From contig JBHGNT010000018.1 in the NCBI GenBank assembly GCA_043228905.1, positions 6,696,001 to 6,760,000 of the forward strand: a DNA stretch of 64,000 nt, written 5' to 3'. The notes under the pieces were generated by a model, which worked only from the letters and a program-made list of their open reading frames with translations, was not told the origin of the DNA and ran no database searches. Shown piece after piece: positions 1 to 17,921 of the stretch (position 1 is the stretch's first letter; every line of letters begins with the position of its first letter). A program made the translations under genes and the position numbers. The stretch comes from Azolla caroliniana (Eukaryota > Plantae > Polypodiophyta).

Positions 1-2
1 AG

Positions 3-440
3 AGCACTGAATCGGTAAAAACCGATCAACCGAGTCCGGATCGACCGAATACAAATCGGAAAGGAAGCCGAACTAAACGAAAGACGATCCGACGAGACCG
101 AATCGGAAGTAAGCTAATCCGACTAAACCGAAAATCCGAAAAGAAGTCGAGATTGATGAAGAAAAGAAAGAGGGCGAGAAAAGATACTACCGCGGATGAC
201 AAGGACCAAACGGGCCATGCAAAAAGCGAACGAAGACTATGGTGGATCGGATGTCGACAATGGTTCGGGTGGAAAGAATGGATGTGCTCCAAATGGAGAG
301 ACAAAGTCAACATAACAAGAGAAGTCGAGGGTACTACGAGCCGGCAACGAAACCAATCGGGTAGAGACCGGACGGAGGAGACTAACAAACACCAACAACT
401 TCGGCACATACCGGAGGATGTGCGGGTTTGGAGGGGGTGA
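3..440 (+). CDS. C-terminal part of the array Gag-like ORF (partial unit at window edge)
   Basis: Identical to the 3' end of the 702-aa ORFs. Confidence 0.7.
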   Translation, partial: STESVKTDQPSPDRPNTNRKGSRTKRKTIRRDRIGSKLIRLNRKSEKKSRLMKKRKRARKDTTADDKDQTGHAKSERRLWWIGCRQWFGWKEWMCSKWRDKVNITREVEGTTSRQRNQSGRDRTEETNKHQQLRHIPEDVRVWRG

Positions 441-441
441 G
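430..441 (+). promoter_or_regulatory. Polypurine tract, repeated every 2817 bp
   Basis: GGAGGGGGTGAG immediately 5' of the LTR start TGTCATAG; overlaps the ORF stop codon. Confidence 0.85.
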
Positions 442-1197
442 TGTCATAGTGTATTTTGTACACTACGTGAAAAACGTATATAGTATTAGATTCAATAAAA
501 AATGAAGAAATAGAAGAAAATAGCAAAATAAATGGAACATGCATAGGGCAAGATTCGAACCTTGCACCTCCATGTTAATAATGTAATGTCTTACCATTAC
601 ACTAGCATTTCATTAGTGTTAAAGTATAGATGTCCCACATAGAAAGGTAAATTCACGCTAGGATAAACATTAGAAAAACGCATAACAAAAGAAAAAGCTA
701 CACATACACATCTAGCGTGCATGATAAAAAACGCACAAGTTAGAAAAAAGCATGATCACTTTAGATAAAGCATATAGTCTATCTATAGGAAAAGCATGGG
801 GTCTATAGTTAGAGAAAAAGCATGGATTACTAAGACTTTCTCATCACTACATAAGGATGGGGAGCACAATGTAATAGGCGTGTGAAATATTTGGAAATTG
901 GATATATTTCCGAAAACACCAACCGATTAATATAATCGTGGGATTCACGAAAATAATATAATCTATACTTGTGGGATTCACAAGTTTCTTATATCTTTCT
1001 TTCAATCTAAATACATATTCTTATCTAAATATTGATTAATCGAATACAATACACTCGTGGGATTCACGAAATTTCTATCTCTCTTTCTAATAATCTATTC
1101 ATTACTAGCCTCATCTCATATTCTTCTTTCTCCTAGTCCAAAACCCCAGTGGTTCCCACCCGACTCACGCAACGATCCGCAGCCGAAAGGCACGACA
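442..1197 (+). repeat. LTR copy 1 (756 bp)
   Basis: TGTCATAG...CACGACA termini, preceded by PPT and followed by PBS. Confidence 0.93.
541..606 (-). promoter_or_regulatory. tRNA-like A-box/B-box module inside U3, antisense to the LTR, present in all six array LTRs
   Basis: Minus strand reads GCTAGTGTAATGGTAAG...GGAGGTGCAAGGTTCGAATCTTGCCCTATGC: A box TAGTGTAATGG, B box GGTTCGAATC in a GCAAG/CTTGC stem, tRNA-like spacing, T4 run downstream. Confidence 0.7.
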
Positions 1198-1201
1198 CAG
1201 T

Positions 1202-1219
1202 TGGTGAACCCGACGTGAA
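1202..1219 (+). promoter_or_regulatory. Primer-binding site complementary to tRNA-Trp (repeated in each unit)
   Basis: TGGTGAACCCGACGTGAA is the reverse complement of the plant tRNA-Trp(CCA) 3' end TTCACGTCGGGTTCACCA (recalled sequence); begins 4 nt after the LTR. Confidence 0.88.
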
Positions 1220-1235
1220 GGCGGGTGGCAAGGAG

Positions 1236-3257
1236 ATGGAGAATCAACAAGAGGCAATGAGTATAACGATGATGATGATGTTCGAGCGGATGCTACAAGA
1301 ACAACGAGTGATGTCGGAGATCACGGCGGTAGTAAAGCGGCTCGTACAACGAAACGGACAATTCAACGGAAACGATCTGTCACGCTATCTACATGACTAC
1401 AAGGCAGAGATGATACGATGTGGGATACCGGAAGGATTGCAAGTGACATCCTTCAATCGGGTGGCCACGGATGAGCTACAAGAGAGAATCCACAAGATAC
1501 GGCAACAAAACTCGACATGGGGATCATTCGAAGAAGCTTTACGAGAGGCATATGATTACAAGAGATCGAAGGGAAAAGATCGGCGAGAATTCGACGAATG
1601 GGTGGCATCGGAGAAGACCCACCGAAGTGCAACACAAGCATTCCTAGAGTTCGAGCATCGTTTTGCTCGACTCTCGGAGCGGGAACGAAGATTGGTGGGA
1701 GAAGATAAAGTCTTAATGTTCGTAAGATCGATCGATCGGAAAGAAAGGATGGACATTGGGATCGAACTCGAAGATGATGACGGTGCGAACGGCCTTACCG
1801 AAGATTGGGCCGAAGTCCAAAGGGTATGCCGGAGACATGATAAGAGGAAGATGAGAATCTTGTCAACAACATGGCCGATGAAGGATGGTCGATTGAAGAC
1901 AAACGATGGAGCCGATATGAAGGCCGAAATACAACATGATGGTGCGACGGAAGAGGGTGTAAAACAAGCTACCCTCTTGTCTTGTGAAAGAACGATGGCG
2001 AAGGATAAGGCCGATAATTCAAGTGTAGAAGGAAATTTCGGGATACAAGTGCCCGAGACATCGGGTCAAAAAGGGGTAAGCATAATAGATGTTTGCATAA
2101 TTGATGCAGATAAAGAGTGTGAAGCGGATGTGATTAAGGAGGTAGCCACAAAAGACGAAATCGAATCGGAGGTGGCTATGGACGAATCAATGGCGGATTG
2201 CCATATCGAGACTTCCCCAGCACTGATTCCAGAGACTCCGGCGGTTGCGATCGAAAGGCAACGTGAGACCGAAGAGACGGAAGGTGGTGGAGAGAAAACG
2301 AATGTCGAAGCCGACGAATACGATGAAGAGATAGCCGAGAAGAATGCTAAGGGTGAAACTACGAAAGAAGGTAAAACCGAGGATTCATGCCAACAATATC
2401 TAGAGACTTCGGCGGTTGTGTCCGAGAACCAACGTGAGACCGGAGAGACGGGAGATGGCGGCGAGGAAGGTAAAGTCGGAAGTCGGTTCGGATGGAAAAT
2501 GATCCATCCGAAATTCCAATCTAAAAGAAAGTGTGACAATGCGGAGGTCGGGTCTACGACGGGAGAAGCGCGTAATACAGAGCACGCTCTACGGCGAATA
2601 AAGAAACGCGTGTTATGGCGAATAAAGAAGCACGCGCTACGGCGAGAAAAGAAGCATGCATTACAACCACACGAGGACCGAACAACGAGCACATATCGGA
2701 GGACCTACGTAGCGAACAACGGAAAGAAGTGCCGAAAGTCGAACCGGACAAGGCAGGTGAAAACGAAGAAAAGAAAGCAAATCCGGACGAAAAGAAAAGA
2801 AAAGAAACCGACCCGAAAGAGCACTGAATCGGTAAAAACCGATCAACCGAGTCCGGATCGACCGAATACAAATCGGAAAGGAAGCCGAACTAAACGAAAG
2901 ACGATCCGACGAGACCGAATCGGAAGTAAGCTAATCCGACTAAACCGAAAATCCGAAAAGAAGTCGAGATTGATGAAGAAAAGAAAGAGGGCGAGAAAAG
3001 ATACTACCGCGGATGACAAGGACCAAACGGGCCATGCAAAAAGCGAACGAAGACTATGGTGGATCGGATGTCGACAATGGTTCGGGTGGAAAGAATGGAT
3101 GTGCTCCAAATGGAGAGACAAAGTCAACATAACAAGAGAAGTCGAGGGTACTACGAGCCGGCAACGAAACCAATCGGGTAGAGACCGGACGGAGGAGACT
3201 AACAAACACCAACAACTTCGGCACATACCGGAGGATGTGCGGGTTTGGAGGGGGTGA
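1236..3257 (+). CDS. gag: Gag-like protein (~673 aa from the first ATG after the PBS): capsid-like N-terminus, then acidic and K/R-rich tails; no PR/RT/RH/IN
   Basis: FNGNDLSRYL...WGSFEEALREAY...FEHRF pattern typical of Ty3/Gypsy capsid. Homologous fragment at 51966-52445. The GTG start at 1149 lies in the LTR, so the ATG at 1236 is preferred. Confidence 0.75.
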   Translation: MENQQEAMSITMMMMFERMLQEQRVMSEITAVVKRLVQRNGQFNGNDLSRYLHDYKAEMIRCGIPEGLQVTSFNRVATDELQERIHKIRQQNSTWGSFEEALREAYDYKRSKGKDRREFDEWVASEKTHRSATQAFLEFEHRFARLSERERRLVGEDKVLMFVRSIDRKERMDIGIELEDDDGANGLTEDWAEVQRVCRRHDKRKMRILSTTWPMKDGRLKTNDGADMKAEIQHDGATEEGVKQATLLSCERTMAKDKADNSSVEGNFGIQVPETSGQKGVSIIDVCIIDADKECEADVIKEVATKDEIESEVAMDESMADCHIETSPALIPETPAVAIERQRETEETEGGGEKTNVEADEYDEEIAEKNAKGETTKEGKTEDSCQQYLETSAVVSENQRETGETGDGGEEGKVGSRFGWKMIHPKFQSKRKCDNAEVGSTTGEARNTEHALRRIKKRVLWRIKKHALRREKKHALQPHEDRTTSTYRRTYVANNGKKCRKSNRTRQVKTKKRKQIRTKRKEKKPTRKSTESVKTDQPSPDRPNTNRKGSRTKRKTIRRDRIGSKLIRLNRKSEKKSRLMKKRKRARKDTTADDKDQTGHAKSERRLWWIGCRQWFGWKEWMCSKWRDKVNITREVEGTTSRQRNQSGRDRTEETNKHQQLRHIPEDVRVWRG

Positions 3258-3258
3258 G

Positions 3259-4014
3259 TGTCATAGTGTATTTTGTACACTACGTGAAAAACGTATATAG
3301 TATTAGATTCAATAAAAAATGAAGAAATAGAAGAAAATAGCAAAATAAATGGAACATGCATAGGGCAAGATTCGAACCTTGCACCTCCATGTTAATAATG
3401 TAATGTCTTACCATTACACTAGCATTTCATTAGTGTTAAAGTATAGATGTCCCACATAGAAAGGTAAATTCACGCTAGGATAAACATTAGAAAAACGCAT
3501 AACAAAAGAAAAAGCTACACATACACATCTAGCGTGCATGATAAAAAACGCACAAGTTAGAAAAAAGCATGATCACTTTAGATAAAGCATATAGTCTATC
3601 TATAGGAAAAGCATGGGGTCTATAGTTAGAGAAAAAGCATGGATTACTAAGACTTTCTCATCACTACATAAGGATGGGGAGCACAATGTAATAGGCGTGT
3701 GAAATATTTGGAAATTGGATATATTTCCGAAAACACCAACCGATTAATATAATCGTGGGATTCACGAAAATAATATAATCTATACTTGTGGGATTCACAA
3801 GTTTCTTATATCTTTCTTTCAATCTAAATACATATTCTTATCTAAATATTGATTAATCGAATACAATACACTCGTGGGATTCACGAAATTTCTATCTCTC
3901 TTTCTAATAATCTATTCATTACTAGCCTCATCTCATATTCTTCTTTCTCCTAGTCCAAAACCCCAGTGGTTCCCACCCGACTCACGCAACGATCCGCAGC
4001 CGAAAGGCACGACA
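3259..4014 (+). repeat. LTR copy 2
   Basis: Same sequence as 442-1197. Confidence 0.93.
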
Positions 4015-4052
4015 CAGTTGGTGAACCCGACGTGAAGGCGGGTGGCAAGGAG

Positions 4053-6074
4053 ATGGAGAATCAACAAGAGGCAATGAGTATAACGATGATGATGATGTTC
4101 GAGCGGATGCTACAAGAACAACGAGTGATGTCGGAGATCACGGCGGTAGTAAAGCGGCTCGTACAACGAAACGGACAATTCAACGGAAACGATCTGTCAC
4201 GCTATCTACATGACTACAAGGCAGAGATGATACGATGTGGGATACCGGAAGGATTGCAAGTGACATCCTTCAATCGGGTGGCCACGGATGAGCTACAAGA
4301 GAGAATCCACAAGATACGGCAACAAAACTCGACATGGGGATCATTCGAAGAAGCTTTACGAGAGGCATATGATTACAAGAGATCGAAGGGAAAAGATCGG
4401 CGAGAATTCGACGAATGGGTGGCATCGGAGAAGACCCACCGAAGTGCAACACAAGCATTCCTAGAGTTCGAGCATCGTTTTGCTCGACTCTCGGAGCGGG
4501 AACGAAGATTGGTGGGAGAAGATAAAGTCTTAATGTTCGTAAGATCGATCGATCGGAAAGAAAGGATGGACATTGGGATCGAACTCGAAGATGATGACGG
4601 TGCGAACGGCCTTACCGAAGATTGGGCCGAAGTCCAAAGGGTATGCCGGAGACATGATAAGAGGAAGATGAGAATCTTGTCAACAACATGGCCGATGAAG
4701 GATGGTCGATTGAAGACAAACGATGGAGCCGATATGAAGGCCGAAATACAACATGATGGTGCGACGGAAGAGGGTGTAAAACAAGCTACCCTCTTGTCTT
4801 GTGAAAGAACGATGGCGAAGGATAAGGCCGATAATTCAAGTGTAGAAGGAAATTTCGGGATACAAGTGCCCGAGACATCGGGTCAAAAAGGGGTAAGCAT
4901 AATAGATGTTTGCATAATTGATGCAGATAAAGAGTGTGAAGCGGATGTGATTAAGGAGGTAGCCACAAAAGACGAAATCGAATCGGAGGTGGCTATGGAC
5001 GAATCAATGGCGGATTGCCATATCGAGACTTCCCCAGCACTGATTCCAGAGACTCCGGCGGTTGCGATCGAAAGGCAACGTGAGACCGAAGAGACGGAAG
5101 GTGGTGGAGAGAAAACGAATGTCGAAGCCGACGAATACGATGAAGAGATAGCCGAGAAGAATGCTAAGGGTGAAACTACGAAAGAAGGTAAAACCGAGGA
5201 TTCATGCCAACAATATCTAGAGACTTCGGCGGTTGTGTCCGAGAACCAACGTGAGACCGGAGAGACGGGAGATGGCGGCGAGGAAGGTAAAGTCGGAAGT
5301 CGGTTCGGATGGAAAATGATCCATCCGAAATTCCAATCTAAAAGAAAGTGTGACAATGCGGAGGTCGGGTCTACGACGGGAGAAGCGCGTAATACAGAGC
5401 ACGCTCTACGGCGAATAAAGAAACGCGTGTTATGGCGAATAAAGAAGCACGCGCTACGGCGAGAAAAGAAGCATGCATTACAACCACACGAGGACCGAAC
5501 AACGAGCACATATCGGAGGACCTACGTAGCGAACAACGGAAAGAAGTGCCGAAAGTCGAACCGGACAAGGCAGGTGAAAACGAAGAAAAGAAAGCAAATC
5601 CGGACGAAAAGAAAAGAAAAGAAACCGACCCGAAAGAGCACTGAATCGGTAAAAACCGATCAACCGAGTCCGGATCGACCGAATACAAATCGGAAAGGAA
5701 GCCGAACTAAACGAAAGACGATCCGACGAGACCGAATCGGAAGTAAGCTAATCCGACTAAACCGAAAATCCGAAAAGAAGTCGAGATTGATGAAGAAAAG
5801 AAAGAGGGCGAGAAAAGATACTACCGCGGATGACAAGGACCAAACGGGCCATGCAAAAAGCGAACGAAGACTATGGTGGATCGGATGTCGACAATGGTTC
5901 GGGTGGAAAGAATGGATGTGCTCCAAATGGAGAGACAAAGTCAACATAACAAGAGAAGTCGAGGGTACTACGAGCCGGCAACGAAACCAATCGGGTAGAG
6001 ACCGGACGGAGGAGACTAACAAACACCAACAACTTCGGCACATACCGGAGGATGTGCGGGTTTGGAGGGGGTGA
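4053..6074 (+). CDS. gag: Gag-like protein, copy 2
   Basis: Identical translation. Confidence 0.75.
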   Translation: MENQQEAMSITMMMMFERMLQEQRVMSEITAVVKRLVQRNGQFNGNDLSRYLHDYKAEMIRCGIPEGLQVTSFNRVATDELQERIHKIRQQNSTWGSFEEALREAYDYKRSKGKDRREFDEWVASEKTHRSATQAFLEFEHRFARLSERERRLVGEDKVLMFVRSIDRKERMDIGIELEDDDGANGLTEDWAEVQRVCRRHDKRKMRILSTTWPMKDGRLKTNDGADMKAEIQHDGATEEGVKQATLLSCERTMAKDKADNSSVEGNFGIQVPETSGQKGVSIIDVCIIDADKECEADVIKEVATKDEIESEVAMDESMADCHIETSPALIPETPAVAIERQRETEETEGGGEKTNVEADEYDEEIAEKNAKGETTKEGKTEDSCQQYLETSAVVSENQRETGETGDGGEEGKVGSRFGWKMIHPKFQSKRKCDNAEVGSTTGEARNTEHALRRIKKRVLWRIKKHALRREKKHALQPHEDRTTSTYRRTYVANNGKKCRKSNRTRQVKTKKRKQIRTKRKEKKPTRKSTESVKTDQPSPDRPNTNRKGSRTKRKTIRRDRIGSKLIRLNRKSEKKSRLMKKRKRARKDTTADDKDQTGHAKSERRLWWIGCRQWFGWKEWMCSKWRDKVNITREVEGTTSRQRNQSGRDRTEETNKHQQLRHIPEDVRVWRG

Positions 6075-6075
6075 G

Positions 6076-6831
6076 TGTCATAGTGTATTTTGTACACTAC
6101 GTGAAAAACGTATATAGTATTAGATTCAATAAAAAATGAAGAAATAGAAGAAAATAGCAAAATAAATGGAACATGCATAGGGCAAGATTCGAACCTTGCA
6201 CCTCCATGTTAATAATGTAATGTCTTACCATTACACTAGCATTTCATTAGTGTTAAAGTATAGATGTCCCACATAGAAAGGTAAATTCACGCTAGGATAA
6301 ACATTAGAAAAACGCATAACAAAAGAAAAAGCTACACATACACATCTAGCGTGCATGATAAAAAACGCACAAGTTAGAAAAAAGCATGATCACTTTAGAT
6401 AAAGCATATAGTCTATCTATAGGAAAAGCATGGGGTCTATAGTTAGAGAAAAAGCATGGATTACTAAGACTTTCTCATCACTACATAAGGATGGGGAGCA
6501 CAATGTAATAGGCGTGTGAAATATTTGGAAATTGGATATATTTCCGAAAACACCAACCGATTAATATAATCGTGGGATTCACGAAAATAATATAATCTAT
6601 ACTTGTGGGATTCACAAGTTTCTTATATCTTTCTTTCAATCTAAATACATATTCTTATCTAAATATTGATTAATCGAATACAATACACTCGTGGGATTCA
6701 CGAAATTTCTATCTCTCTTTCTAATAATCTATTCATTACTAGCCTCATCTCATATTCTTCTTTCTCCTAGTCCAAAACCCCAGTGGTTCCCACCCGACTC
6801 ACGCAACGATCCGCAGCCGAAAGGCACGACA
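6076..6831 (+). repeat. LTR copy 3
   Basis: Same sequence as 442-1197. Confidence 0.93.
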
Positions 6832-6869
6832 CAGTTGGTGAACCCGACGTGAAGGCGGGTGGCAAGGAG

Positions 6870-8891
6870 ATGGAGAATCAACAAGAGGCAATGAGTATAA
6901 CGATGATGATGATGTTCGAGCGGATGCTACAAGAACAACGAGTGATGTCGGAGATCACGGCGGTAGTAAAGCGGCTCGTACAACGAAACGGACAATTCAA
7001 CGGAAACGATCTGTCACGCTATCTACATGACTACAAGGCAGAGATGATACGATGTGGGATACCGGAAGGATTGCAAGTGACATCCTTCAATCGGGTGGCC
7101 ACGGATGAGCTACAAGAGAGAATCCACAAGATACGGCAACAAAACTCGACATGGGGATCATTCGAAGAAGCTTTACGAGAGGCATATGATTACAAGAGAT
7201 CGAAGGGAAAAGATCGGCGAGAATTCGACGAATGGGTGGCATCGGAGAAGACCCACCGAAGTGCAACACAAGCATTCCTAGAGTTCGAGCATCGTTTTGC
7301 TCGACTCTCGGAGCGGGAACGAAGATTGGTGGGAGAAGATAAAGTCTTAATGTTCGTAAGATCGATCGATCGGAAAGAAAGGATGGACATTGGGATCGAA
7401 CTCGAAGATGATGACGGTGCGAACGGCCTTACCGAAGATTGGGCCGAAGTCCAAAGGGTATGCCGGAGACATGATAAGAGGAAGATGAGAATCTTGTCAA
7501 CAACATGGCCGATGAAGGATGGTCGATTGAAGACAAACGATGGAGCCGATATGAAGGCCGAAATACAACATGATGGTGCGACGGAAGAGGGTGTAAAACA
7601 AGCTACCCTCTTGTCTTGTGAAAGAACGATGGCGAAGGATAAGGCCGATAATTCAAGTGTAGAAGGAAATTTCGGGATACAAGTGCCCGAGACATCGGGT
7701 CAAAAAGGGGTAAGCATAATAGATGTTTGCATAATTGATGCAGATAAAGAGTGTGAAGCGGATGTGATTAAGGAGGTAGCCACAAAAGACGAAATCGAAT
7801 CGGAGGTGGCTATGGACGAATCAATGGCGGATTGCCATATCGAGACTTCCCCAGCACTGATTCCAGAGACTCCGGCGGTTGCGATCGAAAGGCAACGTGA
7901 GACCGAAGAGACGGAAGGTGGTGGAGAGAAAACGAATGTCGAAGCCGACGAATACGATGAAGAGATAGCCGAGAAGAATGCTAAGGGTGAAACTACGAAA
8001 GAAGGTAAAACCGAGGATTCATGCCAACAATATCTAGAGACTTCGGCGGTTGTGTCCGAGAACCAACGTGAGACCGGAGAGACGGGAGATGGCGGCGAGG
8101 AAGGTAAAGTCGGAAGTCGGTTCGGATGGAAAATGATCCATCCGAAATTCCAATCTAAAAGAAAGTGTGACAATGCGGAGGTCGGGTCTACGACGGGAGA
8201 AGCGCGTAATACAGAGCACGCTCTACGGCGAATAAAGAAACGCGTGTTATGGCGAATAAAGAAGCACGCGCTACGGCGAGAAAAGAAGCATGCATTACAA
8301 CCACACGAGGACCGAACAACGAGCACATATCGGAGGACCTACGTAGCGAACAACGGAAAGAAGTGCCGAAAGTCGAACCGGACAAGGCAGGTGAAAACGA
8401 AGAAAAGAAAGCAAATCCGGACGAAAAGAAAAGAAAAGAAACCGACCCGAAAGAGCACTGAATCGGTAAAAACCGATCAACCGAGTCCGGATCGACCGAA
8501 TACAAATCGGAAAGGAAGCCGAACTAAACGAAAGACGATCCGACGAGACCGAATCGGAAGTAAGCTAATCCGACTAAACCGAAAATCCGAAAAGAAGTCG
8601 AGATTGATGAAGAAAAGAAAGAGGGCGAGAAAAGATACTACCGCGGATGACAAGGACCAAACGGGCCATGCAAAAAGCGAACGAAGACTATGGTGGATCG
8701 GATGTCGACAATGGTTCGGGTGGAAAGAATGGATGTGCTCCAAATGGAGAGACAAAGTCAACATAACAAGAGAAGTCGAGGGTACTACGAGCCGGCAACG
8801 AAACCAATCGGGTAGAGACCGGACGGAGGAGACTAACAAACACCAACAACTTCGGCACATACCGGAGGATGTGCGGGTTTGGAGGGGGTGA
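6870..8891 (+). CDS. gag: Gag-like protein, copy 3
   Basis: Identical translation. Confidence 0.75.
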   Translation: MENQQEAMSITMMMMFERMLQEQRVMSEITAVVKRLVQRNGQFNGNDLSRYLHDYKAEMIRCGIPEGLQVTSFNRVATDELQERIHKIRQQNSTWGSFEEALREAYDYKRSKGKDRREFDEWVASEKTHRSATQAFLEFEHRFARLSERERRLVGEDKVLMFVRSIDRKERMDIGIELEDDDGANGLTEDWAEVQRVCRRHDKRKMRILSTTWPMKDGRLKTNDGADMKAEIQHDGATEEGVKQATLLSCERTMAKDKADNSSVEGNFGIQVPETSGQKGVSIIDVCIIDADKECEADVIKEVATKDEIESEVAMDESMADCHIETSPALIPETPAVAIERQRETEETEGGGEKTNVEADEYDEEIAEKNAKGETTKEGKTEDSCQQYLETSAVVSENQRETGETGDGGEEGKVGSRFGWKMIHPKFQSKRKCDNAEVGSTTGEARNTEHALRRIKKRVLWRIKKHALRREKKHALQPHEDRTTSTYRRTYVANNGKKCRKSNRTRQVKTKKRKQIRTKRKEKKPTRKSTESVKTDQPSPDRPNTNRKGSRTKRKTIRRDRIGSKLIRLNRKSEKKSRLMKKRKRARKDTTADDKDQTGHAKSERRLWWIGCRQWFGWKEWMCSKWRDKVNITREVEGTTSRQRNQSGRDRTEETNKHQQLRHIPEDVRVWRG

Positions 8892-8892
8892 G

Positions 8893-9648
8893 TGTCATAG
8901 TGTATTTTGTACACTACGTGAAAAACGTATATAGTATTAGATTCAATAAAAAATGAAGAAATAGAAGAAAATAGCAAAATAAATGGAACATGCATAGGGC
9001 AAGATTCGAACCTTGCACCTCCATGTTAATAATGTAATGTCTTACCATTACACTAGCATTTCATTAGTGTTAAAGTATAGATGTCCCACATAGAAAGGTA
9101 AATTCACGCTAGGATAAACATTAGAAAAACGCATAACAAAAGAAAAAGCTACACATACACATCTAGCGTGCATGATAAAAAACGCACAAGTTAGAAAAAA
9201 GCATGATCACTTTAGATAAAGCATATAGTCTATCTATAGGAAAAGCATGGGGTCTATAGTTAGAGAAAAAGCATGGATTACTAAGACTTTCTCATCACTA
9301 CATAAGGATGGGGAGCACAATGTAATAGGCGTGTGAAATATTTGGAAATTGGATATATTTCCGAAAACACCAACCGATTAATATAATCGTGGGATTCACG
9401 AAAATAATATAATCTATACTTGTGGGATTCACAAGTTTCTTATATCTTTCTTTCAATCTAAATACATATTCTTATCTAAATATTGATTAATCGAATACAA
9501 TACACTCGTGGGATTCACGAAATTTCTATCTCTCTTTCTAATAATCTATTCATTACTAGCCTCATCTCATATTCTTCTTTCTCCTAGACCAAAACCCCAG
9601 TGGTTCCCACCCGACTCACGCAACGATCCGCAGCCGAAAGGCACGACA
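8893..9648 (+). repeat. LTR copy 4 (T>A variant at 9588)
   Basis: CCTAGACCAAAA here versus CCTAGTCCAAAA in the other copies. Confidence 0.93.
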
Positions 9649-9686
9649 CAGTTGGTGAACCCGACGTGAAGGCGGGTGGCAAGGAG

Positions 9687-11708
9687 ATGGAGAATCAACA
9701 AGAGGCAATGAGTATAACGATGATGATGATGTTCGAGCGGATGCTACAAGAACAACGAGTGATGTCGGAGATCACGGCGGTAGTAAAGCGGCTCGTACAA
9801 CGAAACGGACAATTCAACGGAAACGATCTGTCACGCTATCTACATGACTACAAGGCAGAGATGATACGATGTGGGATACCGGAAGGATTGCAAGTGACAT
9901 CCTTCAATCGGGTGGCCACGGATGAGCTACAAGAGAGAATCCACAAGATACGGCAACAAAACTCGACATGGGGATCATTCGAAGAAGCTTTACGAGAGGC
10001 ATATGATTACAAGAGATCGAAGGGAAAAGATCGGCGAGAATTCGACGAATGGGTGGCATCGGAGAAGACCCACCGAAGTGCAACACAAGCATTCCTAGAG
10101 TTCGAGCATCGTTTTGCTCGACTCTCGGAGCGGGAACGAAGATTGGTGGGAGAAGATAAAGTCTTAATGTTCGTAAGATCGATCGATCGGAAAGAAAGGA
10201 TGGACATTGGGATCGAACTCGAAGATGATGACGGTGCGAACGGCCTTACCGAAGATTGGGCCGAAGTCCAAAGGGTATGCCGGAGACATGATAAGAGGAA
10301 GATGAGAATCTTGTCAACAACATGGCCGATGAAGGATGGTCGATTGAAGACAAACGATGGAGCCGATATGAAGGCCGAAATACAACATGATGGTGCGACG
10401 GAAGAGGGTGTAAAACAAGCTACCCTCTTGTCTTGTGAAAGAACGATGGCGAAGGATAAGGCCGATAATTCAAGTGTAGAAGGAAATTTCGGGATACAAG
10501 TGCCCGAGACATCGGGTCAAAAAGGGGTAAGCATAATAGATGTTTGCATAATTGATGCAGATAAAGAGTGTGAAGCGGATGTGATTAAGGAGGTAGCCAC
10601 AAAAGACGAAATCGAATCGGAGGTGGCTATGGACGAATCAATGGCGGATTGCCATATCGAGACTTCCCCAGCACTGATTCCAGAGACTCCGGCGGTTGCG
10701 ATCGAAAGGCAACGTGAGACCGAAGAGACGGAAGGTGGTGGAGAGAAAACGAATGTCGAAGCCGACGAATACGATGAAGAGATAGCCGAGAAGAATGCTA
10801 AGGGTGAAACTACGAAAGAAGGTAAAACCGAGGATTCATGCCAACAATATCTAGAGACTTCGGCGGTTGTGTCCGAGAACCAACGTGAGACCGGAGAGAC
10901 GGGAGATGGCGGCGAGGAAGGTAAAGTCGGAAGTCGGTTCGGATGGAAAATGATCCATCCGAAATTCCAATCTAAAAGAAAGTGTGACAATGCGGAGGTC
11001 GGGTCTACGACGGGAGAAGCGCGTAATACAGAGCACGCTCTACGGCGAATAAAGAAACGCGTGTTATGGCGAATAAAGAAGCACGCGCTACGGCGAGAAA
11101 AGAAGCATGCATTACAACCACACGAGGACCGAACAACGAGCACATATCGGAGGACCTACGTAGCGAACAACGGAAAGAAGTGCCGAAAGTCGAACCGGAC
11201 AAGGCAGGTGAAAACGAAGAAAAGAAAGCAAATCCGGACGAAAAGAAAAGAAAAGAAACCGACCCGAAAGAGCACTGAATCGGTAAAAACCGATCAACCG
11301 AGTCCGGATCGACCGAATACAAATCGGAAAGGAAGCCGAACTAAACGAAAGACGATCCGACGAGACCGAATCGGAAGTAAGCTAATCCGACTAAACCGAA
11401 AATCCGAAAAGAAGTCGAGATTGATGAAGAAAAGAAAGAGGGCGAGAAAAGATACTACCGCGGATGACAAGGACCAAACGGGCCATGCAAAAAGCGAACG
11501 AAGACTATGGTGGATCGGATGTCGACAATGGTTCGGGTGGAAAGAATGGATGTGCTCCAAATGGAGAGACAAAGTCAACATAACAAGAGAAGTCGAGGGT
11601 ACTACGAGCCGGCAACGAAACCAATCGGGTAGAGACCGGACGGAGGAGACTAACAAACACCAACAACTTCGGCACATACCGGAGGATGTGCGGGTTTGGA
11701 GGGGGTGA
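9687..11708 (+). CDS. gag: Gag-like protein, copy 4
   Basis: Identical translation. Confidence 0.75.
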   Translation: MENQQEAMSITMMMMFERMLQEQRVMSEITAVVKRLVQRNGQFNGNDLSRYLHDYKAEMIRCGIPEGLQVTSFNRVATDELQERIHKIRQQNSTWGSFEEALREAYDYKRSKGKDRREFDEWVASEKTHRSATQAFLEFEHRFARLSERERRLVGEDKVLMFVRSIDRKERMDIGIELEDDDGANGLTEDWAEVQRVCRRHDKRKMRILSTTWPMKDGRLKTNDGADMKAEIQHDGATEEGVKQATLLSCERTMAKDKADNSSVEGNFGIQVPETSGQKGVSIIDVCIIDADKECEADVIKEVATKDEIESEVAMDESMADCHIETSPALIPETPAVAIERQRETEETEGGGEKTNVEADEYDEEIAEKNAKGETTKEGKTEDSCQQYLETSAVVSENQRETGETGDGGEEGKVGSRFGWKMIHPKFQSKRKCDNAEVGSTTGEARNTEHALRRIKKRVLWRIKKHALRREKKHALQPHEDRTTSTYRRTYVANNGKKCRKSNRTRQVKTKKRKQIRTKRKEKKPTRKSTESVKTDQPSPDRPNTNRKGSRTKRKTIRRDRIGSKLIRLNRKSEKKSRLMKKRKRARKDTTADDKDQTGHAKSERRLWWIGCRQWFGWKEWMCSKWRDKVNITREVEGTTSRQRNQSGRDRTEETNKHQQLRHIPEDVRVWRG

Positions 11709-11709
11709 G

Positions 11710-12465
11710 TGTCATAGTGTATTTTGTACACTACGTGAAAAACGTATATAGTATTAGATTCAATAAAAAATGAAGAAATAGAAGAAAATAGCAAAATAAA
11801 TGGAACATGCATAGGGCAAGATTCGAACCTTGCACCTCCATGTTAATAATGTAATGTCTTACCATTACACTAGCATTTCATTAGTGTTAAAGTATAGATG
11901 TCCCACATAGAAAGGTAAATTCACGCTAGGATAAACATTAGAAAAACGCATAACAAAAGAAAAAGCTACACATACACATCTAGCGTGCATGATAAAAAAC
12001 GCACAAGTTAGAAAAAAGCATGATCACTTTAGATAAAGCATATAGTCTATCTATAGGAAAAGCATGGGGTCTATAGTTAGAGAAAAAGCATGGATTACTA
12101 AGACTTTCTCATCACTACATAAGGATGGGGAGCACAATGTAATAGGCGTGTGAAATATTTGGAAATTGGATATATTTCCGAAAACACCAACCGATTAATA
12201 TAATCGTGGGATTCACGAAAATAATATAATCTATACTTGTGGGATTCACAAGTTTCTTATATCTTTCTTTCAATCTAAATACATATTCTTATCTAAATAT
12301 TGATTAATCGAATACAATACACTCGTGGGATTCACGAAATTTCTATCTCTCTTTCTAATAATCTATTCATTACTAGCCTCATCTCATATTCTTCTTTCTC
12401 CTAGTCCAAAACCCCAGTGGTTCCCACCCGACTCACGCAACGATCCGCAGCCGAAAGGCACGACA
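11710..12465 (+). repeat. LTR copy 5
   Basis: Same sequence as 442-1197. Confidence 0.93.
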
Positions 12466-12503
12466 CAGTTGGTGAACCCGACGTGAAGGCGGGTGGCAAG
12501 GAG

Positions 12504-14525
12504 ATGGAGAATCAACAAGAGGCAATGAGTATAACGATGATGATGATGTTCGAGCGGATGCTACAAGAACAACGAGTGATGTCGGAGATCACGGCGGTAG
12601 TAAAGCGGCTCGTACAACGAAACGGACAATTCAACGGAAACGATCTGTCACGCTATCTACATGACTACAAGGCAGAGATGATACGATGTGGGATACCGGA
12701 AGGATTGCAAGTGACATCCTTCAATCGGGTGGCCACGGATGAGCTACAAGAGAGAATCCACAAGATACGGCAACAAAACTCGACATGGGGATCATTCGAA
12801 GAAGCTTTACGAGAGGCATATGATTACAAGAGATCGAAGGGAAAAGATCGGCGAGAATTCGACGAATGGGTGGCATCGGAGAAGACCCACCGAAGTGCAA
12901 CACAAGCATTCCTAGAGTTCGAGCATCGTTTTGCTCGACTCTCGGAGCGGGAACGAAGATTGGTGGGAGAAGATAAAGTCTTAATGTTCGTAAGATCGAT
13001 CGATCGGAAAGAAAGGATGGACATTGGGATCGAACTCGAAGATGATGACGGTGCGAACGGCCTTACCGAAGATTGGGCCGAAGTCCAAAGGGTATGCCGG
13101 AGACATGATAAGAGGAAGATGAGAATCTTGTCAACAACATGGCCGATGAAGGATGGTCGATTGAAGACAAACGATGGAGCCGATATGAAGGCCGAAATAC
13201 AACATGATGGTGCGACGGAAGAGGGTGTAAAACAAGCTACCCTCTTGTCTTGTGAAAGAACGATGGCGAAGGATAAGGCCGATAATTCAAGTGTAGAAGG
13301 AAATTTCGGGATACAAGTGCCCGAGACATCGGGTCAAAAAGGGGTAAGCATAATAGATGTTTGCATAATTGATGCAGATAAAGAGTGTGAAGCGGATGTG
13401 ATTAAGGAGGTAGCCACAAAAGACGAAATCGAATCGGAGGTGGCTATGGACGAATCAATGGCGGATTGCCATATCGAGACTTCCCCAGCACTGATTCCAG
13501 AGACTCCGGCGGTTGCGATCGAAAGGCAACGTGAGACCGAAGAGACGGAAGGTGGTGGAGAGAAAACGAATGTCGAAGCCGACGAATACGATGAAGAGAT
13601 AGCCGAGAAGAATGCTAAGGGTGAAACTACGAAAGAAGGTAAAACCGAGGATTCATGCCAACAATATCTAGAGACTTCGGCGGTTGTGTCCGAGAACCAA
13701 CGTGAGACCGGAGAGACGGGAGATGGCGGCGAGGAAGGTAAAGTCGGAAGTCGGTTCGGATGGAAAATGATCCATCCGAAATTCCAATCTAAAAGAAAGT
13801 GTGACAATGCGGAGGTCGGGTCTACGACGGGAGAAGCGCGTAATACAGAGCACGCTCTACGGCGAATAAAGAAACGCGTGTTATGGCGAATAAAGAAGCA
13901 CGCGCTACGGCGAGAAAAGAAGCATGCATTACAACCACACGAGGACCGAACAACGAGCACATATCGGAGGACCTACGTAGCGAACAACGGAAAGAAGTGC
14001 CGAAAGTCGAACCGGACAAGGCAGGTGAAAACGAAGAAAAGAAAGCAAATCCGGACGAAAAGAAAAGAAAAGAAACCGACCCGAAAGAGCACTGAATCGG
14101 TAAAAACCGATCAACCGAGTCCGGATCGACCGAATACAAATCGGAAAGGAAGCCGAACTAAACGAAAGACGATCCGACGAGACCGAATCGGAAGTAAGCT
14201 AATCCGACTAAACCGAAAATCCGAAAAGAAGTCGAGATTGATGAAGAAAAGAAAGAGGGCGAGAAAAGATACTACCGCGGATGACAAGGACCAAACGGGC
14301 CATGCAAAAAGCGAACGAAGACTATGGTGGATCGGATGTCGACAATGGTTCGGGTGGAAAGAATGGATGTGCTCCAAATGGAGAGACAAAGTCAACATAA
14401 CAAGAGAAGTCGAGGGTACTACGAGCCGGCAACGAAACCAATCGGGTAGAGACCGGACGGAGGAGACTAACAAACACCAACAACTTCGGCACATACCGGA
14501 GGATGTGCGGGTTTGGAGGGGGTGA
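12504..14525 (+). CDS. gag: Gag-like protein, copy 5
   Basis: Identical translation. Confidence 0.75.
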   Translation: MENQQEAMSITMMMMFERMLQEQRVMSEITAVVKRLVQRNGQFNGNDLSRYLHDYKAEMIRCGIPEGLQVTSFNRVATDELQERIHKIRQQNSTWGSFEEALREAYDYKRSKGKDRREFDEWVASEKTHRSATQAFLEFEHRFARLSERERRLVGEDKVLMFVRSIDRKERMDIGIELEDDDGANGLTEDWAEVQRVCRRHDKRKMRILSTTWPMKDGRLKTNDGADMKAEIQHDGATEEGVKQATLLSCERTMAKDKADNSSVEGNFGIQVPETSGQKGVSIIDVCIIDADKECEADVIKEVATKDEIESEVAMDESMADCHIETSPALIPETPAVAIERQRETEETEGGGEKTNVEADEYDEEIAEKNAKGETTKEGKTEDSCQQYLETSAVVSENQRETGETGDGGEEGKVGSRFGWKMIHPKFQSKRKCDNAEVGSTTGEARNTEHALRRIKKRVLWRIKKHALRREKKHALQPHEDRTTSTYRRTYVANNGKKCRKSNRTRQVKTKKRKQIRTKRKEKKPTRKSTESVKTDQPSPDRPNTNRKGSRTKRKTIRRDRIGSKLIRLNRKSEKKSRLMKKRKRARKDTTADDKDQTGHAKSERRLWWIGCRQWFGWKEWMCSKWRDKVNITREVEGTTSRQRNQSGRDRTEETNKHQQLRHIPEDVRVWRG

Positions 14526-14526
14526 G

Positions 14527-15282
14527 TGTCATAGTGTATTTTGTACACTACGTGAAAAACGTATATAGTATTAGATTCAATAAAAAATGAAGAAATAGAA
14601 GAAAATAGCAAAATAAATGGAACATGCATAGGGCAAGATTCGAACCTTGCACCTCCATGTTAATAATGTAATGTCTTACCATTACACTAGCATTTCATTA
14701 GTGTTAAAGTATAGATGTCCCACATAGAAAGGTAAATTCACGCTAGGATAAACATTAGAAAAACGCATAACAAAAGAAAAAGCTACACATACACATCTAG
14801 CGTGCATGATAAAAAACGCACAAGTTAGAAAAAAGCATGATCACTTTAGATAAAGCATATAGTCTATCTATAGGAAAAGCATGGGGTCTATAGTTAGAGA
14901 AAAAGCATGGATTACTAAGACTTTCTCATCACTACATAAGGATGGGGAGCACAATGTAATAGGCGTGTGAAATATTTGGAAATTGGATATATTTCCGAAA
15001 ACACCAACCGATTAATATAATCGTGGGATTCACGAAAATAATATAATCTATACTTGTGGGATTCACAAGTTTCTTATATCTTTCTTTCAATCTAAATACA
15101 TATTCTTATCTAAATATTGATTAATCGAATACAATACACTCGTGGGATTCACGAAATTTCTATCTCTCTTTCTAATAATCTATTCATTACTAGCCTCATC
15201 TCATATTCTTCTTTCTCCTAGTCCAAAACCCCAGTGGTTCCCACCCGACTCACGCAACGATCCGCAGCCGAAAGGCACGACA
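14527..15282 (+). repeat. Terminal (3') LTR of the array
   Basis: Ends in CACGACA followed by ACGT and host sequence, not by a PBS. Confidence 0.93.
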
Positions 15283-16299
15283 ACGTATCGAGTTCCTGTA
15301 TAAAACAAGAACTTGAAAGAGGAATATTGTTTTTTGTGAGAAAAGATATCAAACTTTCTCAATATGTGTTCGTGAACCTCTTTGGGGACCTTGTAGACAA
15401 TGTTGTATCCCTTTACCTTGTGCTTTGCTCGACTCTTAGTGAACTTGATTGTGATGACAACGTCAACATACATTGTTGCAGTGGGTGCATCTTTTAATAA
15501 TGCATACGTGTTCTTGCATTGTGGTAACTTTGCATAGTAGTTGCCATACACGACACACTCACCAACATTGAACATGTTGCACCAACCGTCCCTCACGACT
15601 TCTTCCAATATTGTATTTCCTTGCTTGCATACCACAATGTAGTAGTCTTCAAAATCTTCATTTTGAGGAGATTTGAGCACTGCAAAATGATGTCCAACTT
15701 CCAATAATACTACCAAGTCCTCACATTGGTTGTAGTATACAATATTGTCTGCATGTCCGTCTTCCTGGATATCCACACATTGTTCAATCTCAAGCTTTTG
15801 TAGCTTCCATGGCTCCACAATTGATAGCTTGGTGCATTCATCCCAAGCTTCATCTAAACACATGGAACAAAAGCACGATAAACTGTGGAATAACAATTGT
15901 GTTGTGTCCCTGCGACTAAACCCTAAAACACAATGGGTCTTGCGCGTCCCTGTCACAGTTTTACAACCATACGATTTACTCCTATCCACCTCATTAGCAC
16001 CAACCTCAATAAACAATCTATTCTTACCATCATTTGACATATTCCATGTCAGCCACTCCACAACGTCATGTGCATTTTGTAACTTCGCACCTTTATTATC
16101 CAACTGTTCACTTGTAAGAGCACGTTTGATCACAGCCGCTGCGCCATTGTGCTCTCCTTTTCCATGTCCAGACCCAAAGTAGTTCCATTGCATCCTAATG
16201 TTTGTCAATGAGAAGTATCTGGGTGTTTTGCATGACAGTTAGCCAACAAACAGAGTTAGTGCATTACTGGAGCTTACATCTCTTACCATGACTTAAACC

Positions 16300-17100
16300 A
16301 AAATTTCCACTAATGCACGAGAGAGGACAATACTAAGTTATAAATTAAAAGACATGAACAAGAGAGGACAATACTAAGTTATAAATTAAAAGAAATGAAT
16401 GAGAGAGGATAGTACTAAGCTATTGATTAGTACTAATGCATGAGAGAGGACAATCCTAAGTTATAACTTGGTCTTAATGAACAAGGTTGGACAGTACTAA
16501 GTTAATAATTAGTAGTAATGAACATAGTTGGATAGTTCTCATGCTAATAATTAGTACTAATGTTTGTACTAATGGGCCATGACAATCATAAGTTATAAAC
16601 TTGTGTTAATGAACAAAGTTGGACAGTACTAAGTTATAATTTAGTACTAATGCACTAGAGAGACCCATCCTAATCAGTACTAATGAAAAAAGTTATAAAT
16701 GAGTAGTAATGACTGAAAGAAGATAGTACTAAGTTATTCATTAGTACTAATGCACGACAGAGGACAATGCTAAGTTACAAATTAGTACTCCTGCCTGTGG
16801 GATGACACCACAAAGTTATCAATTAGTACTTGTGAATGCGGGATCTGAGTACTAAGTTGTAAAACATAGTCAGTACTTGTGCATGTGGGATGATAGTACT
16901 AAGTTGTAAAATAAGGGTACTTTACAAGGCGTTGAACCGTAGTCAGTAATTGTGCATGTGGGATGATACTACTAAGTTATAAAATAAGGATACTTTTCAA
17001 GGCTTTGAACCATACATACAAGACTTACACCATAATTAGTACAAACATTTCAAGATAGTACTGGTGCATGTAGTAGGAGAATTACTAATTGTATTTTATA
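16300..17100. repeat. Degenerate AT-rich minisatellite (AGTACTAAGTTATAA/TAGTACTAATG motif) in the transposase intron
   Basis: Many diverged copies of gtactaagtt/agtactaatg; boundaries approximate. Confidence 0.75.
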
Positions 17101-17198
17101 CAAACATTTTTTATGACTGTTCATATAATATTCGTACTGGTAGGAAACTCAAGCAATAGATGATGTACTATGAAGTATTACCAAAATAGACTTCCCGT

Positions 17199-17921
17199 TG
17201 TCGTGCCTTTCGGCTCCGGATCGTTTGCGTGAGTCGGGTGGGAACCACCGGGGTTTTGGACTAGGAGAAAAGAAAAATACAAATAAGGCTAGTAAAGAAT
17301 AGGTATAAAGAGTTATAAGATAAAAATCTCGTGAATCCCACGAGTTTAGTATATTTAGTCAATATTTAGGTAGTAAGAGAGAATTATTTTAGCAAATTCG
17401 TGAATCCCACGAATATTTTAGATTGATTGATCATTATAGAAAAATAATCAACAAAAACTACAATGTGCTCCCCATCCTTATATAGTGATGGGAGAGACTA
17501 AGCATAACTACATGCTTTTTCTAATATGTTCATGCACACTAAATGTGCATGTGATGTTTTTCTAATCCTTGCTTTTATTTGCTAAATATAGTGCTCATGC
17601 ACGCTAGATGTGCATGAGTCACTTTTTAGTTGCTTGCGTTTTTCTATAAAATATTCACGCACTCTAAAAATGCATGATTTACCTTTTTAATAAAGGTAGG
17701 CGCAAATAAAGCACTTATAGTTATTAAATCTATTTATAGAACACTAAAGATAAGGTAGCATAATGGTAAAGTTGAGGTTTGGCTACGTGAAGGTACAAGG
17801 TTTGAATCTTGCCCTATGCACGTGATAAATATCTTGATATATTATTTTATTTATTTATATGTAATTAAATCGGTTATATTATTTTTACTTTTTCACGTAG
17901 TGTACGAAATACACTACGACA
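17199..17921 (-). mobile_element. Solo LTR of a diverged subtype of the array family, 4-bp TSD CCGT
   Basis: Both ends are reverse complements of the array LTR ends; CCGT at 17195-17198 and 17922-17925. Confidence 0.92.

What the first reader, a model, noticed from the sequence alone, without database searches (positions are those of the whole stretch)
1..15282. Near-identical head-to-tail array of a Gag-only LTR element sharing single LTRs
Seen: six LTRs alternate with five complete internal regions plus a partial one. By eye I found only one difference (T>A at 9588). Every unit keeps its PBS, PPT and open ORF, so each LTR-int-LTR segment is a structurally complete element. Inference: very recent amplification by LTR-LTR unequal exchange, rolling-circle replication of a 1-LTR circle, or concatemer integration. 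It may be an incipient protein-coding satellite in Copia-rich heterochromatin.
Basis: partly seen in the sequence, partly recalled or inferred. Interest (0 to 1): 0.75.

Follow-up and report, generated by a model that had tools for sequence, protein, structure and literature searches.

The report
Tandem stack of Gag-only retrotransposon
Six near-identical head-to-tail copies of a small plant jumping gene that codes only for a capsid-like protein sit at one insertion site, likely multiplied in place by recombination between its end repeats, which is a real but already well-described kind of structure.

Summary
Confirmed and completed. The array has 7 LTRs (756 bp) and 6 internal regions (2061 bp), period 2817, 17,658 bp. 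It starts 2.4 kb left of the window, has ACGT on both sides, and interrupts a DNA-transposon-like repeat whose intact paralogs exist in the genome. The unit is a non-autonomous Ty3/gypsy element of TR-GAG type with Phygy hallmarks (4-bp NCGN duplication, tRNA-Trp primer site); at least 437 internal units and an autonomous partner occur genome-wide. Five other shared-LTR arrays of the family were found. In four arrays, derived LTR variants are shared between inner and end LTRs with the polarity expected from 3'LTR x 5'LTR exchange. This favours growth in place after insertion over a concatemer made at birth. Contig depth in one public run weakly supports about 4-6 units; no long reads were available. 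Nothing here supports a centromeric satellite: a host kinase gene lies about 10 kb away. Such arrays are published (rice, Cassandra, sugar beet up to 21 LTRs), and this scan noted similar ones in fungal genomes. Two side features remain leads: an antisense tRNA-like cassette in the LTR and a conserved Trp-rich protein tail.

The parts
1..15282 (+). In-window part of the tandem array; the whole array is G000:C18:6693625-6711282 (17,658 bp, 7 LTRs, 6 internal regions), starting 2375 bp left of the window
1..441 (+). 3' part of internal region 1 (the rest and LTR1 lie left of the window, L001 6625-9000)
442..1197 (+). LTR2 (shared), 756 bp, TG...CA
1236..3257 (+). 673-aa Gag-only ORF, unit 2
3259..4014 (+). 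LTR3 (shared)
4053..6074 (+). 673-aa ORF, unit 3
6076..6831 (+). LTR4 (shared)
6870..8891 (+). 673-aa ORF, unit 4
8893..9648 (+). LTR5 (shared); carries the derived A at 9588 (LTR position 696), also found in LTR1 and in 0 of 55 other LTR copies checked
9687..11708 (+). 673-aa ORF, unit 5
11710..12465 (+). LTR6 (shared)
12470..12487 (+). Primer-binding site, 18-nt complement of tRNA-Trp(CCA); same in every unit at steps of 2817
12504..14525 (+). 673-aa ORF, unit 6: residues 1-205 capsid-like, 206-420 acidic, 421-673 basic; no zinc knuckle, protease, RT, RNase H or integrase
14325..14366 (+). Codons of the Trp-rich C-terminal motif conserved in diverged Gag-only relatives, not found in the autonomous partner
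14515..14526 (+). Polypurine tract abutting the LTR (holds the ORF's stop codon); same in every unit
14527..15282 (+). LTR7, the 3' terminal LTR
14633..14689 (-). tRNA-like A-box/B-box cassette, antisense, in the left (U3) part of each LTR; weak Rfam tRNA match, 13.4 bits, below the cut-off of 29
15283..15286 (+). Right copy of the 4-bp target-site duplication ACGT (left copy at contig 6693621-6693624)
15287..15330 (.). Continuation of the interrupted host repeat (palindromic end region of a DUF7869 transposase element)
17199..17922 (-). Solo LTR of an older subfamily of the same lineage, with CCGT on both sides; an independent insertion

Best explanation
A single copy of a non-autonomous, capsid-only Ty3/gypsy element sits between two copies of a 4-bp target (ACGT), likely inserted with enzymes borrowed from its autonomous partner, and was likely multiplied in place to six units by repeated out-of-register recombination between its two LTRs. 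Shown: the unit's anatomy, one TSD around the whole array, host continuity, the partner's Pol domains, and the variant patterns. Inferred: mobilisation in trans (shared LTR ends, PBS, PPT and NCGN target); the first dimer by exchange between the 3' LTR of one chromatid and the 5' LTR of the other; further exchanges, of which at least two (or one gene conversion) came after the single T>A change, since it sits in LTR1 and LTR5 only. Excision of a one-LTR circle followed by homologous re-entry at the same locus would give the same hybrid LTRs and is counted within this reading. The array is most likely a neutral, unstable by-product, not a functional satellite.
For: One ACGT duplication brackets all six units; two intact host paralogs join the left 62 bp and right 48 bp with a single 4-bp site. 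14 of 18 dispersed loci have 4-bp NCGN TSDs and 0 of 18 a 5-bp TSD (3 of the 4 misses were not complete in the stretch fetched). Autonomous elements share the LTR ends, PBS and PPT, have 56% identity over 204 Gag residues, and carry protease, RT, RNase H and integrase. Of 11 other multi-junction loci fetched, 5 are shared-LTR arrays (2-4 units; 4 with one TSD, 1 cut at its 5' end), 1 is an array of partial units, 1 a chimera with unequal LTRs and a mismatched TSD, and 4 are nested or separate insertions. Derived variants shared between an end LTR and inner LTRs: 4 of 4 have the predicted polarity (left-end sites go with the 3' LTR: C5 site 52, C1 site 34; right-end sites go with the leftmost LTR: C3 site 774, this array site 696). 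Three more derived variants are shared by inner units only (C5 sites 83 and 409, C17 internal site 29). In C5 the end LTRs differ at 5 sites while its four internal regions are identical, which a concatemer made at birth would not give. Published work reads TSD-retaining tandems as intra-element recombination (PMC13570524, PMC5932611, passages).
Against: Four polarised sites is few (1 in 16 by chance), and the C3 array lacks its true 5' end. This array itself gives only one informative base, which could be a polishing error copied between LTR1 and LTR5. PMC11899658 and PMC7215508 keep template switching or read-through transcripts as open alternatives. Unit number rests on the assembly plus rough contig depth: the LTR marker gave about 14-18 copies (15-17 in the assembly, 10-12 if only two LTRs); the internal marker gave about 7-9 (10 in the assembly, 5 if one unit). 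At three other internal sites the array's allele was not seen in that run's contigs. Mobilisation in trans and expression are untested.
Confidence: 0.72

Rival explanations
1. The array was born as a concatemer: read-through transcription, template switching in reverse transcription, or rolling-circle copying of a one-LTR circle made multi-unit DNA that integrase inserted in one step.
For: One TSD and near-perfect identity of all units; the C8 array has no variant at all; template switching and multi-unit transcripts are documented for Cassandra (PMC7215508, passages).
Against: All LTRs would be identical at birth and later changes private. Instead LTR1 and LTR5 share a derived base, and the C1, C3, C5 and C17 arrays show shared derived bases among subsets of units. 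A 17.7-kb cDNA is 2.4 times the autonomous element's length (about 7.1-7.4 kb).
Confidence: 0.13
2. A real insertion of one to three units was inflated by the assembler.
For: Units are identical over 17.7 kb, longer than many long reads; the inner A could be a misplaced copy of the array's start; the internal-marker depth points to about 4-5 units, not 6; three array alleles were not seen in the contigs.
Against: Both junctions are clean with one TSD. Junction-spanning contigs in run X3 have depth 35.5-38.6, while the LTR-end variant contig implies about 620-640 per word, about 16-17 copies against 15-17 in the assembly. Shorter arrays of the same family, easily spanned by reads, have the same design and internal variants.
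Confidence: 0.1
3. The array is an incipient functional satellite (centromeric like tRLC5, or a selected Gag-dosage locus).
For: All ORFs are intact; across 15 family copies the ORF shows pN/pS 0.30-0.54 and only in-frame indels; truncated tRLC5 copies cluster at putative moss centromeres (PMC7466625, passages).
Against: Intact ORFs are expected in copies this young. The selection signal is that of the transposing family, not of this array. A host kinase gene lies about 10-11 kb away. The family is dispersed (437 internal-motif matches), with small arrays at about 3-4 of 93 loci in the first 100 listed matches. tRLC5 is Copia.
Confidence: 0.05

Closest known systems
Tandem LTR-retrotransposon structures sharing internal LTRs (Morales-Diaz et al. 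2025, PMC11899658; parts 1-4 of 6 read, whole main text)
   Same: Alternating LTR and internal regions, begins and ends with an LTR, one TSD, gypsy-type, young, inserted in another transposon
   Different: Here six units of a Gag-only element with a 4-bp TSD; their detailed examples are dimers with 5-bp TSDs, and they could not separate the mechanisms, whereas LTR variant polarity here favours recombination after insertion
Tandemly arranged non-autonomous LTR elements of sugar beet (PMC13570524, passages) and Cassandra arrays (PMC7215508, passages)
   Same: Non-autonomous units in shared-LTR arrays; 97 copies in 38 families with 3-21 LTRs in beet, up to 12 repeats for Cassandra; most keep a TSD
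   Different: Those units are mostly short and non-coding; this unit is 2.8 kb and keeps a 673-aa ORF under purifying selection
TR-GAG elements (Chaparro et al. 2015, PMC4350172; abstract and passages)
   Same: Under 4 kb (3.57 kb as a single element), LTRs, PBS, PPT, one Gag ORF, no Pol
   Different: 4-bp instead of 5-bp TSD; no zinc knuckle; long acidic and basic tail with a Trp-rich motif; the word 'tandem' does not occur in that paper's main text
Phygy lineage of non-chromovirus Ty3/gypsy (Neumann et al. 2019, PMC6317226; passages and one supplement row)
   Same: 4-bp NCGN TSD, tRNA-Trp PBS, no chromodomain found in the partner's Pol
   Different: Partner is about 7.1-7.4 kb, just under the listed 7.7-10 kb; placement by RT tree was not tested
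Helenus / TRIMp3 (Kojima 2024, PMC10886601; abstract start and passages)
   Same: tRNA-like box A and box B inside the LTR of a non-autonomous element
   Different: Helenus are tiny non-coding TRIMs; here the cassette is antisense, in a coding element, and degenerate copies occur in the autonomous partner too

Membership tests
Tandem LTR-RT structure (PMC11899658) | Alternating LTR and internal regions, starting and ending with an LTR, inner LTRs shared | tested here: met
   7 LTRs and 6 internal regions, period 2817
Tandem LTR-RT structure (PMC11899658) | One TSD around the whole structure, flanks continuous | tested here: met
   ACGT on both sides; intact host paralogs L057 and L058
Tandem LTR-RT structure (PMC11899658) | Confirmed by spanning long reads | not testable with these tools
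   Only assembled contigs of public runs were offered; depth is rough support only
TR-GAG (PMC4350172) | Under 4 kb with LTRs, PBS and PPT | tested here: met
   Single copies 3.1-3.6 kb; PBS; PPT
TR-GAG (PMC4350172) | Single ORF with a Gag domain | tested here: met
   56% identity over 204 aa to the partner's ORF1; Atlas features match Retrotrans_gag clusters at 0.94; the top 13 fold hits are Arc, PNMA2, Ty3 and Copia capsids, best E 0.02, none at E<=0.001; no Pfam hit on the ORF itself
TR-GAG (PMC4350172) | No RT, RNase H or integrase | tested here: met
   No Pfam domain; DNA likeness to the partner is limited to the first ~340 and last ~50 bp of the internal region
TR-GAG (PMC4350172) | 5-bp TSD as reported for angiosperm TR-GAGs | tested here: not met
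   4-bp TSD in 14 of 18 loci, 5-bp in 0 of 18; a trait of the partner's integrase, so filed as TR-GAG-type structure, not as one of the described families
Phygy (PMC6317226) | 4-bp TSD with NCGN preference | tested here: met
   NCGN at 43 of 48 left and 38 of 48 right ends; reference
Phygy (PMC6317226) | tRNA-Trp PBS | tested here: met
Phygy (PMC6317226) | Gypsy domain order, no chromodomain, no extra ORF | tested here: met
   Partner: protease in ORF1, then RT, RNase H, integrase; no chromodomain hit at E<=0.1
Phygy (PMC6317226) | RT/RH/INT phylogeny within the Phygy clade | not testable with these tools
   No reference Phygy sequences were on hand
Ty1/copia | Integrase before RT; RVT_2 | tested here: not met
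   Partner has RVT_1 before RNase H and integrase
Helenus / TRIMp3 (PMC10886601) | tRNA-like box A and box B in the LTR | tested here: inconclusive
   Strict A+B pair in 46 of 51 distinct LTRs of this type, 0 of 15 of the main autonomous type, 0 of 20000 shuffles (pattern chosen after seeing the sequence); Rfam tRNA 13.4 bits, E 2.6 in a 141-bp scan, nothing in wider scans; ARAGORN none
Helenus / TRIMp3 (PMC10886601) | Miniature, non-coding internal region | tested here: not met
   2061-bp internal region with a 673-aa ORF
Centromeric retrotransposon satellite (tRLC5-like) | One cluster per chromosome, CENH3-bound, gene-free setting | tested here: inconclusive
   CENH3 not testable; family dispersed and an EDR1-type gene about 10-11 kb away argue against

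The most novel reading that the evidence does not exclude
This lineage carries an antisense RNA polymerase III-type cassette in its LTR that makes each shared LTR a fork-pause and recombination site, so arrays grow in place. The arrays multiply a gene for a capsid fused to an acidic-basic, Trp-rich tail that joins the autonomous partner's particles and redirects or poisons them: a self-amplifying defective-interfering retroelement.
Probability: 0.07. Interest if true: 0.65.

Novelty: new member of a known kind. Interest (0 to 1): 0.27.

Why it matters
As a structure it is ordinary: shared-LTR tandems are common in plants, flies and fungi. Its modest value is as a clean test case. One family offers at least six young arrays with single TSDs, and the left/right polarity of shared LTR variants is a simple way to separate growth after insertion from concatemer insertion, a question PMC11899658 left open. 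The element also extends Gag-only non-autonomous elements to the Phygy-like lineage, with two unexplained conserved features (antisense tRNA-like LTR cassette, Trp-rich tail) that can be tested cheaply.

Tried and rejected
Raw or long reads: none offered; no RNA holder listed, which says nothing on expression. Runs X1 and X6 had no cover over the array-type LTR end and junction at 15265-15279; contigs cannot show absence, so insertion polymorphism is not claimed. X7, the same sample as X3, listed no junction contig. Pfam found nothing on the 673-aa ORF; a sequence search of solved structures gave only chance hits; the Atlas gave no usable hit for the C-terminal 114 aa. The wider structural search could not be run because the machine was busy, so the capsid fold rests on weak Foldseek E-values. 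Rfam scans of 14400-18100 and of an autonomous LTR found no tRNA match. A first tRNA-Trp pattern found nothing; a corrected one found 55 matches. No single genome-wide census of shared LTRs was obtained; frequency comes from the first 100 listed matches only. Four loci with paired PBS hits proved to be nested or separate insertions. One LTR pair (L006) was mis-parsed and dropped from the LTR-LTR comparison. The idea that the Trp-rich motif is a frame-shifted piece of the partner's Pol was tested by tblastn and not supported. It may be a nucleotide signal rather than a protein motif, since an ORF-less 438-bp derivative keeps it. Literature searches for a polarity test of inner LTRs and for Pol III-driven LTR recombination each returned one paper, neither describing this; these searches were narrow. 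Earlier scan notes on this genome concerned a different, PPT-less family.
Full report
Observation. The window's first 15,282 bases repeat with a period of exactly 2817; one variant base (9588) explains the only two mismatches. Five whole units hold the same 673-aa ORF. The window lies at G000:C18:6696001-6760000. The left neighbour shows that the array ends one unit beyond the window: 7 LTRs of 756 bp (TG...CA) and 6 identical internal regions of 2061 bp, 17,658 bp in all, with ACGT before the first and after the last LTR. LTR1 and LTR5 carry A at LTR position 696, the other five T; 55 of 55 other LTR copies checked have T. Two paralogs of the host repeat join the 62 bp left of the array to the 48 bp right of it with a single 4-bp site, and a contig of run X1 shows the same join. 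So this is one insertion with one target-site duplication.

The unit. The PBS is an 18-nt complement of the genome's own tRNA-Trp. Dispersed copies have 4-bp NCGN duplications in 14 of 18 loci and none of 5 bp. Neumann et al. (PMC6317226, passages and one supplement row) give 4-bp NCGN and tRNA-Trp (81%) as marks of the Phygy lineage, described from a moss; the host is therefore likely a non-seed plant (inference). Autonomous elements of about 7.1-7.4 kb share the LTR ends, PBS and PPT and encode Gag-protease and an overlapping RT-RNase H-integrase frame without a chromodomain hit. The ORF's first 204 residues are 56% identical to their Gag. The Atlas places this part with Retrotrans_gag clusters (0.94), and a model with pLDDT 87 has Arc, PNMA2, Ty3 and Copia capsids as its top 13 fold hits, though none reaches E 0.001. 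The rest is an acidic and then a basic low-complexity tail without the partner's zinc knuckle. Across 15 family copies, picked for likeness and so biased to intact ones, pN/pS is 0.30, 0.54 and 0.39 for the three parts, and all indels (9 of 15 copies) are in frame. Relatives at 28-37% identity over more than 90% of the length exist in public assemblies (4 of 22 hits). This is a long-lived Gag-only lineage of TR-GAG type (PMC4350172, abstract and passages). The genome holds 748 exact LTR-PBS junctions (both element types), 161 of one PPT-LTR junction and 437 of one internal motif.

Other arrays. Of 11 other loci with repeated junctions that I fetched, five are shared-LTR arrays (C17, 4 units; C5, 4 short units; C3, 3 units, 5' end lost; C1 and C8, 2 units), one is an array of partial units (C12), one a chimera with three unequal LTRs and a mismatched TSD (L050), and four are nested or separate insertions. 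Among the first 100 of 437 listed motif matches, 3-4 of 93 loci are tandem. This array is the longest I saw, but the lists were cut.

Mechanism. If the 3' LTR of one chromatid recombines with the 5' LTR of the other, the new inner LTR takes its left part from the 3' LTR and its right part from the 5' LTR. A concatemer made during reverse transcription starts with identical LTRs, and later changes are private (reasoning from the standard replication scheme, recalled). Polarised against the family, four derived variants are shared between an end LTR and inner LTRs, and all four fit the exchange: C5 site 52 and C1 site 34 with the 3' LTR, C3 site 774 and this array's site 696 with the leftmost LTR. 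Three more derived variants are shared among inner units only; C8 has none and C17 has one private LTR change. C5's end LTRs differ at five sites while its four internal regions are identical. The pattern A,T,T,T,A,T,T needs at least two exchanges, or one conversion, after the mutation. The sample is small (1 in 16 by chance), and a circle that re-enters its own locus by homology cannot be told apart. With one difference in 756 bp between the end LTRs, the insertion is as young as its dispersed sisters (0-5 mismatches in 11 LTR pairs).

Artefact check. Only assembled contigs were available, and the tool warns that their depth is no copy number. In run X3 two junction-specific contigs have depth 35.5 and 38.6; the contig with the array-type LTR-end variant (524.8 over 21 words) implies about 620-640 per word, or 14-18 copies, against 15-17 in the assembly and 10-12 if the locus had two LTRs. 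An internal marker gives about 309, or 7-9 copies, against 10 in the assembly and 5 for a single unit. Against this, three other array alleles were not seen in X3's contigs, and X7 of the same sample listed no junction contig. A multi-unit array is likely; the exact number is not proven.

Setting. An EDR1/CTR1-type kinase gene lies about 10-11 kb to the left; the right side is a nest of Copia and gypsy remnants. Nothing points to a centromere; the moss centromeric tRLC5 is Copia and clusters once per chromosome (PMC7466625, passages).

Comparison. Shared-LTR tandems are frequent in rice, Arabidopsis, almond and cotton (PMC11899658, main text read), in Cassandra (up to 12 repeats; PMC7215508, passages), in sugar beet non-autonomous families (97 copies, 3-21 LTRs; PMC13570524, passages) and in Drosophila (PMC5932611, passages). 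Earlier notes of this scan describe similar arrays in fungal genomes (unchecked). The finding is a new member of a known kind.

Side leads. Each LTR holds an antisense stretch with tRNA-like A and B boxes 43 nt apart: 46 of 51 distinct LTRs of this type, degenerate islands in the autonomous type, 0 of 20,000 shuffles, with a pattern chosen after the fact; Rfam's tRNA model scores it below cut-off. Helenus TRIMs carry such boxes (PMC10886601, passages), and tRNA genes can pause forks and raise recombination in yeasts (PMC5368702, passages); a link to array growth here is speculation. A Trp-rich motif near the protein's end is kept in 11 of 14 aligned relatives (one of the other three is an autonomous-type Gag) and is not found in the partner; it may act as protein or as nucleic acid. 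Truncated Gag proteins that restrict their own element are known for yeast Ty1 (recalled, no call). Verdict: real, well explained, interest 0.27.

Noticed in passing
window 14633-14689 (-), and the same place in every LTR; also 17199-17922: Antisense tRNA-like A-box/B-box cassette in the LTR, kept as islands even in the autonomous partner's otherwise dissimilar U3; possible Pol III promoter or SINE remnant
   Followed up: partly
window 14325-14366: Trp-rich motif near the ORF's end, conserved in diverged Gag-only relatives; its DNA matches exactly at 437 places in the genome; no family found
   Followed up: partly
L034 3390-8781 (G000:C5): Four-unit array of a TRIM-like derivative (728-bp LTR, 438-bp internal region) with hybrid inner LTRs; the clearest record of exchange after insertion
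   Followed up: yes
L036 2585-8931 (G000:C12): One full element followed by three partial units (229 bp of internal end plus a slightly shortened LTR) inside one CCGG duplication; not LTR-LTR exchange, likely microhomology-driven
   Followed up: partly
L050 1067-6980 (G000:C4): Three-LTR chimera with LTRs of different lengths and a mismatched TSD, likely recombination between two different copies
   Followed up: partly
L038 1556-3074; also L010, L012, L023: Another family member inserted into the same palindromic motif of the DUF7869 host repeat, and several fetched loci lie beside this host; possible preferred target or just host abundance
   Followed up: no
L037 (G000:C4 about 4361400-4362400): An autonomous-type copy inserted exactly at the ACGT inside another copy's PBS, i.e. 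the NCGN target lies within the family's own primer site
   Followed up: no
window 15265 and loci L051-L054: The array's LTR-end variant is absent from 55 sister LTRs but shared with about ten autonomous-type LTRs; recurrent change or exchange with the partner
   Followed up: partly
   Followed up: no
G000:C8 17801960-17823373 and C16 4993948-5087205: Clusters of 16 and 15 tRNA-Trp 3'-end matches, many about 1.2 kb apart on C8; tandem tRNA gene arrays
   Followed up: no
window 51966-52445: Fragment of a more distant Gag-only relative (65% identity over residues 102-212)
   Followed up: no
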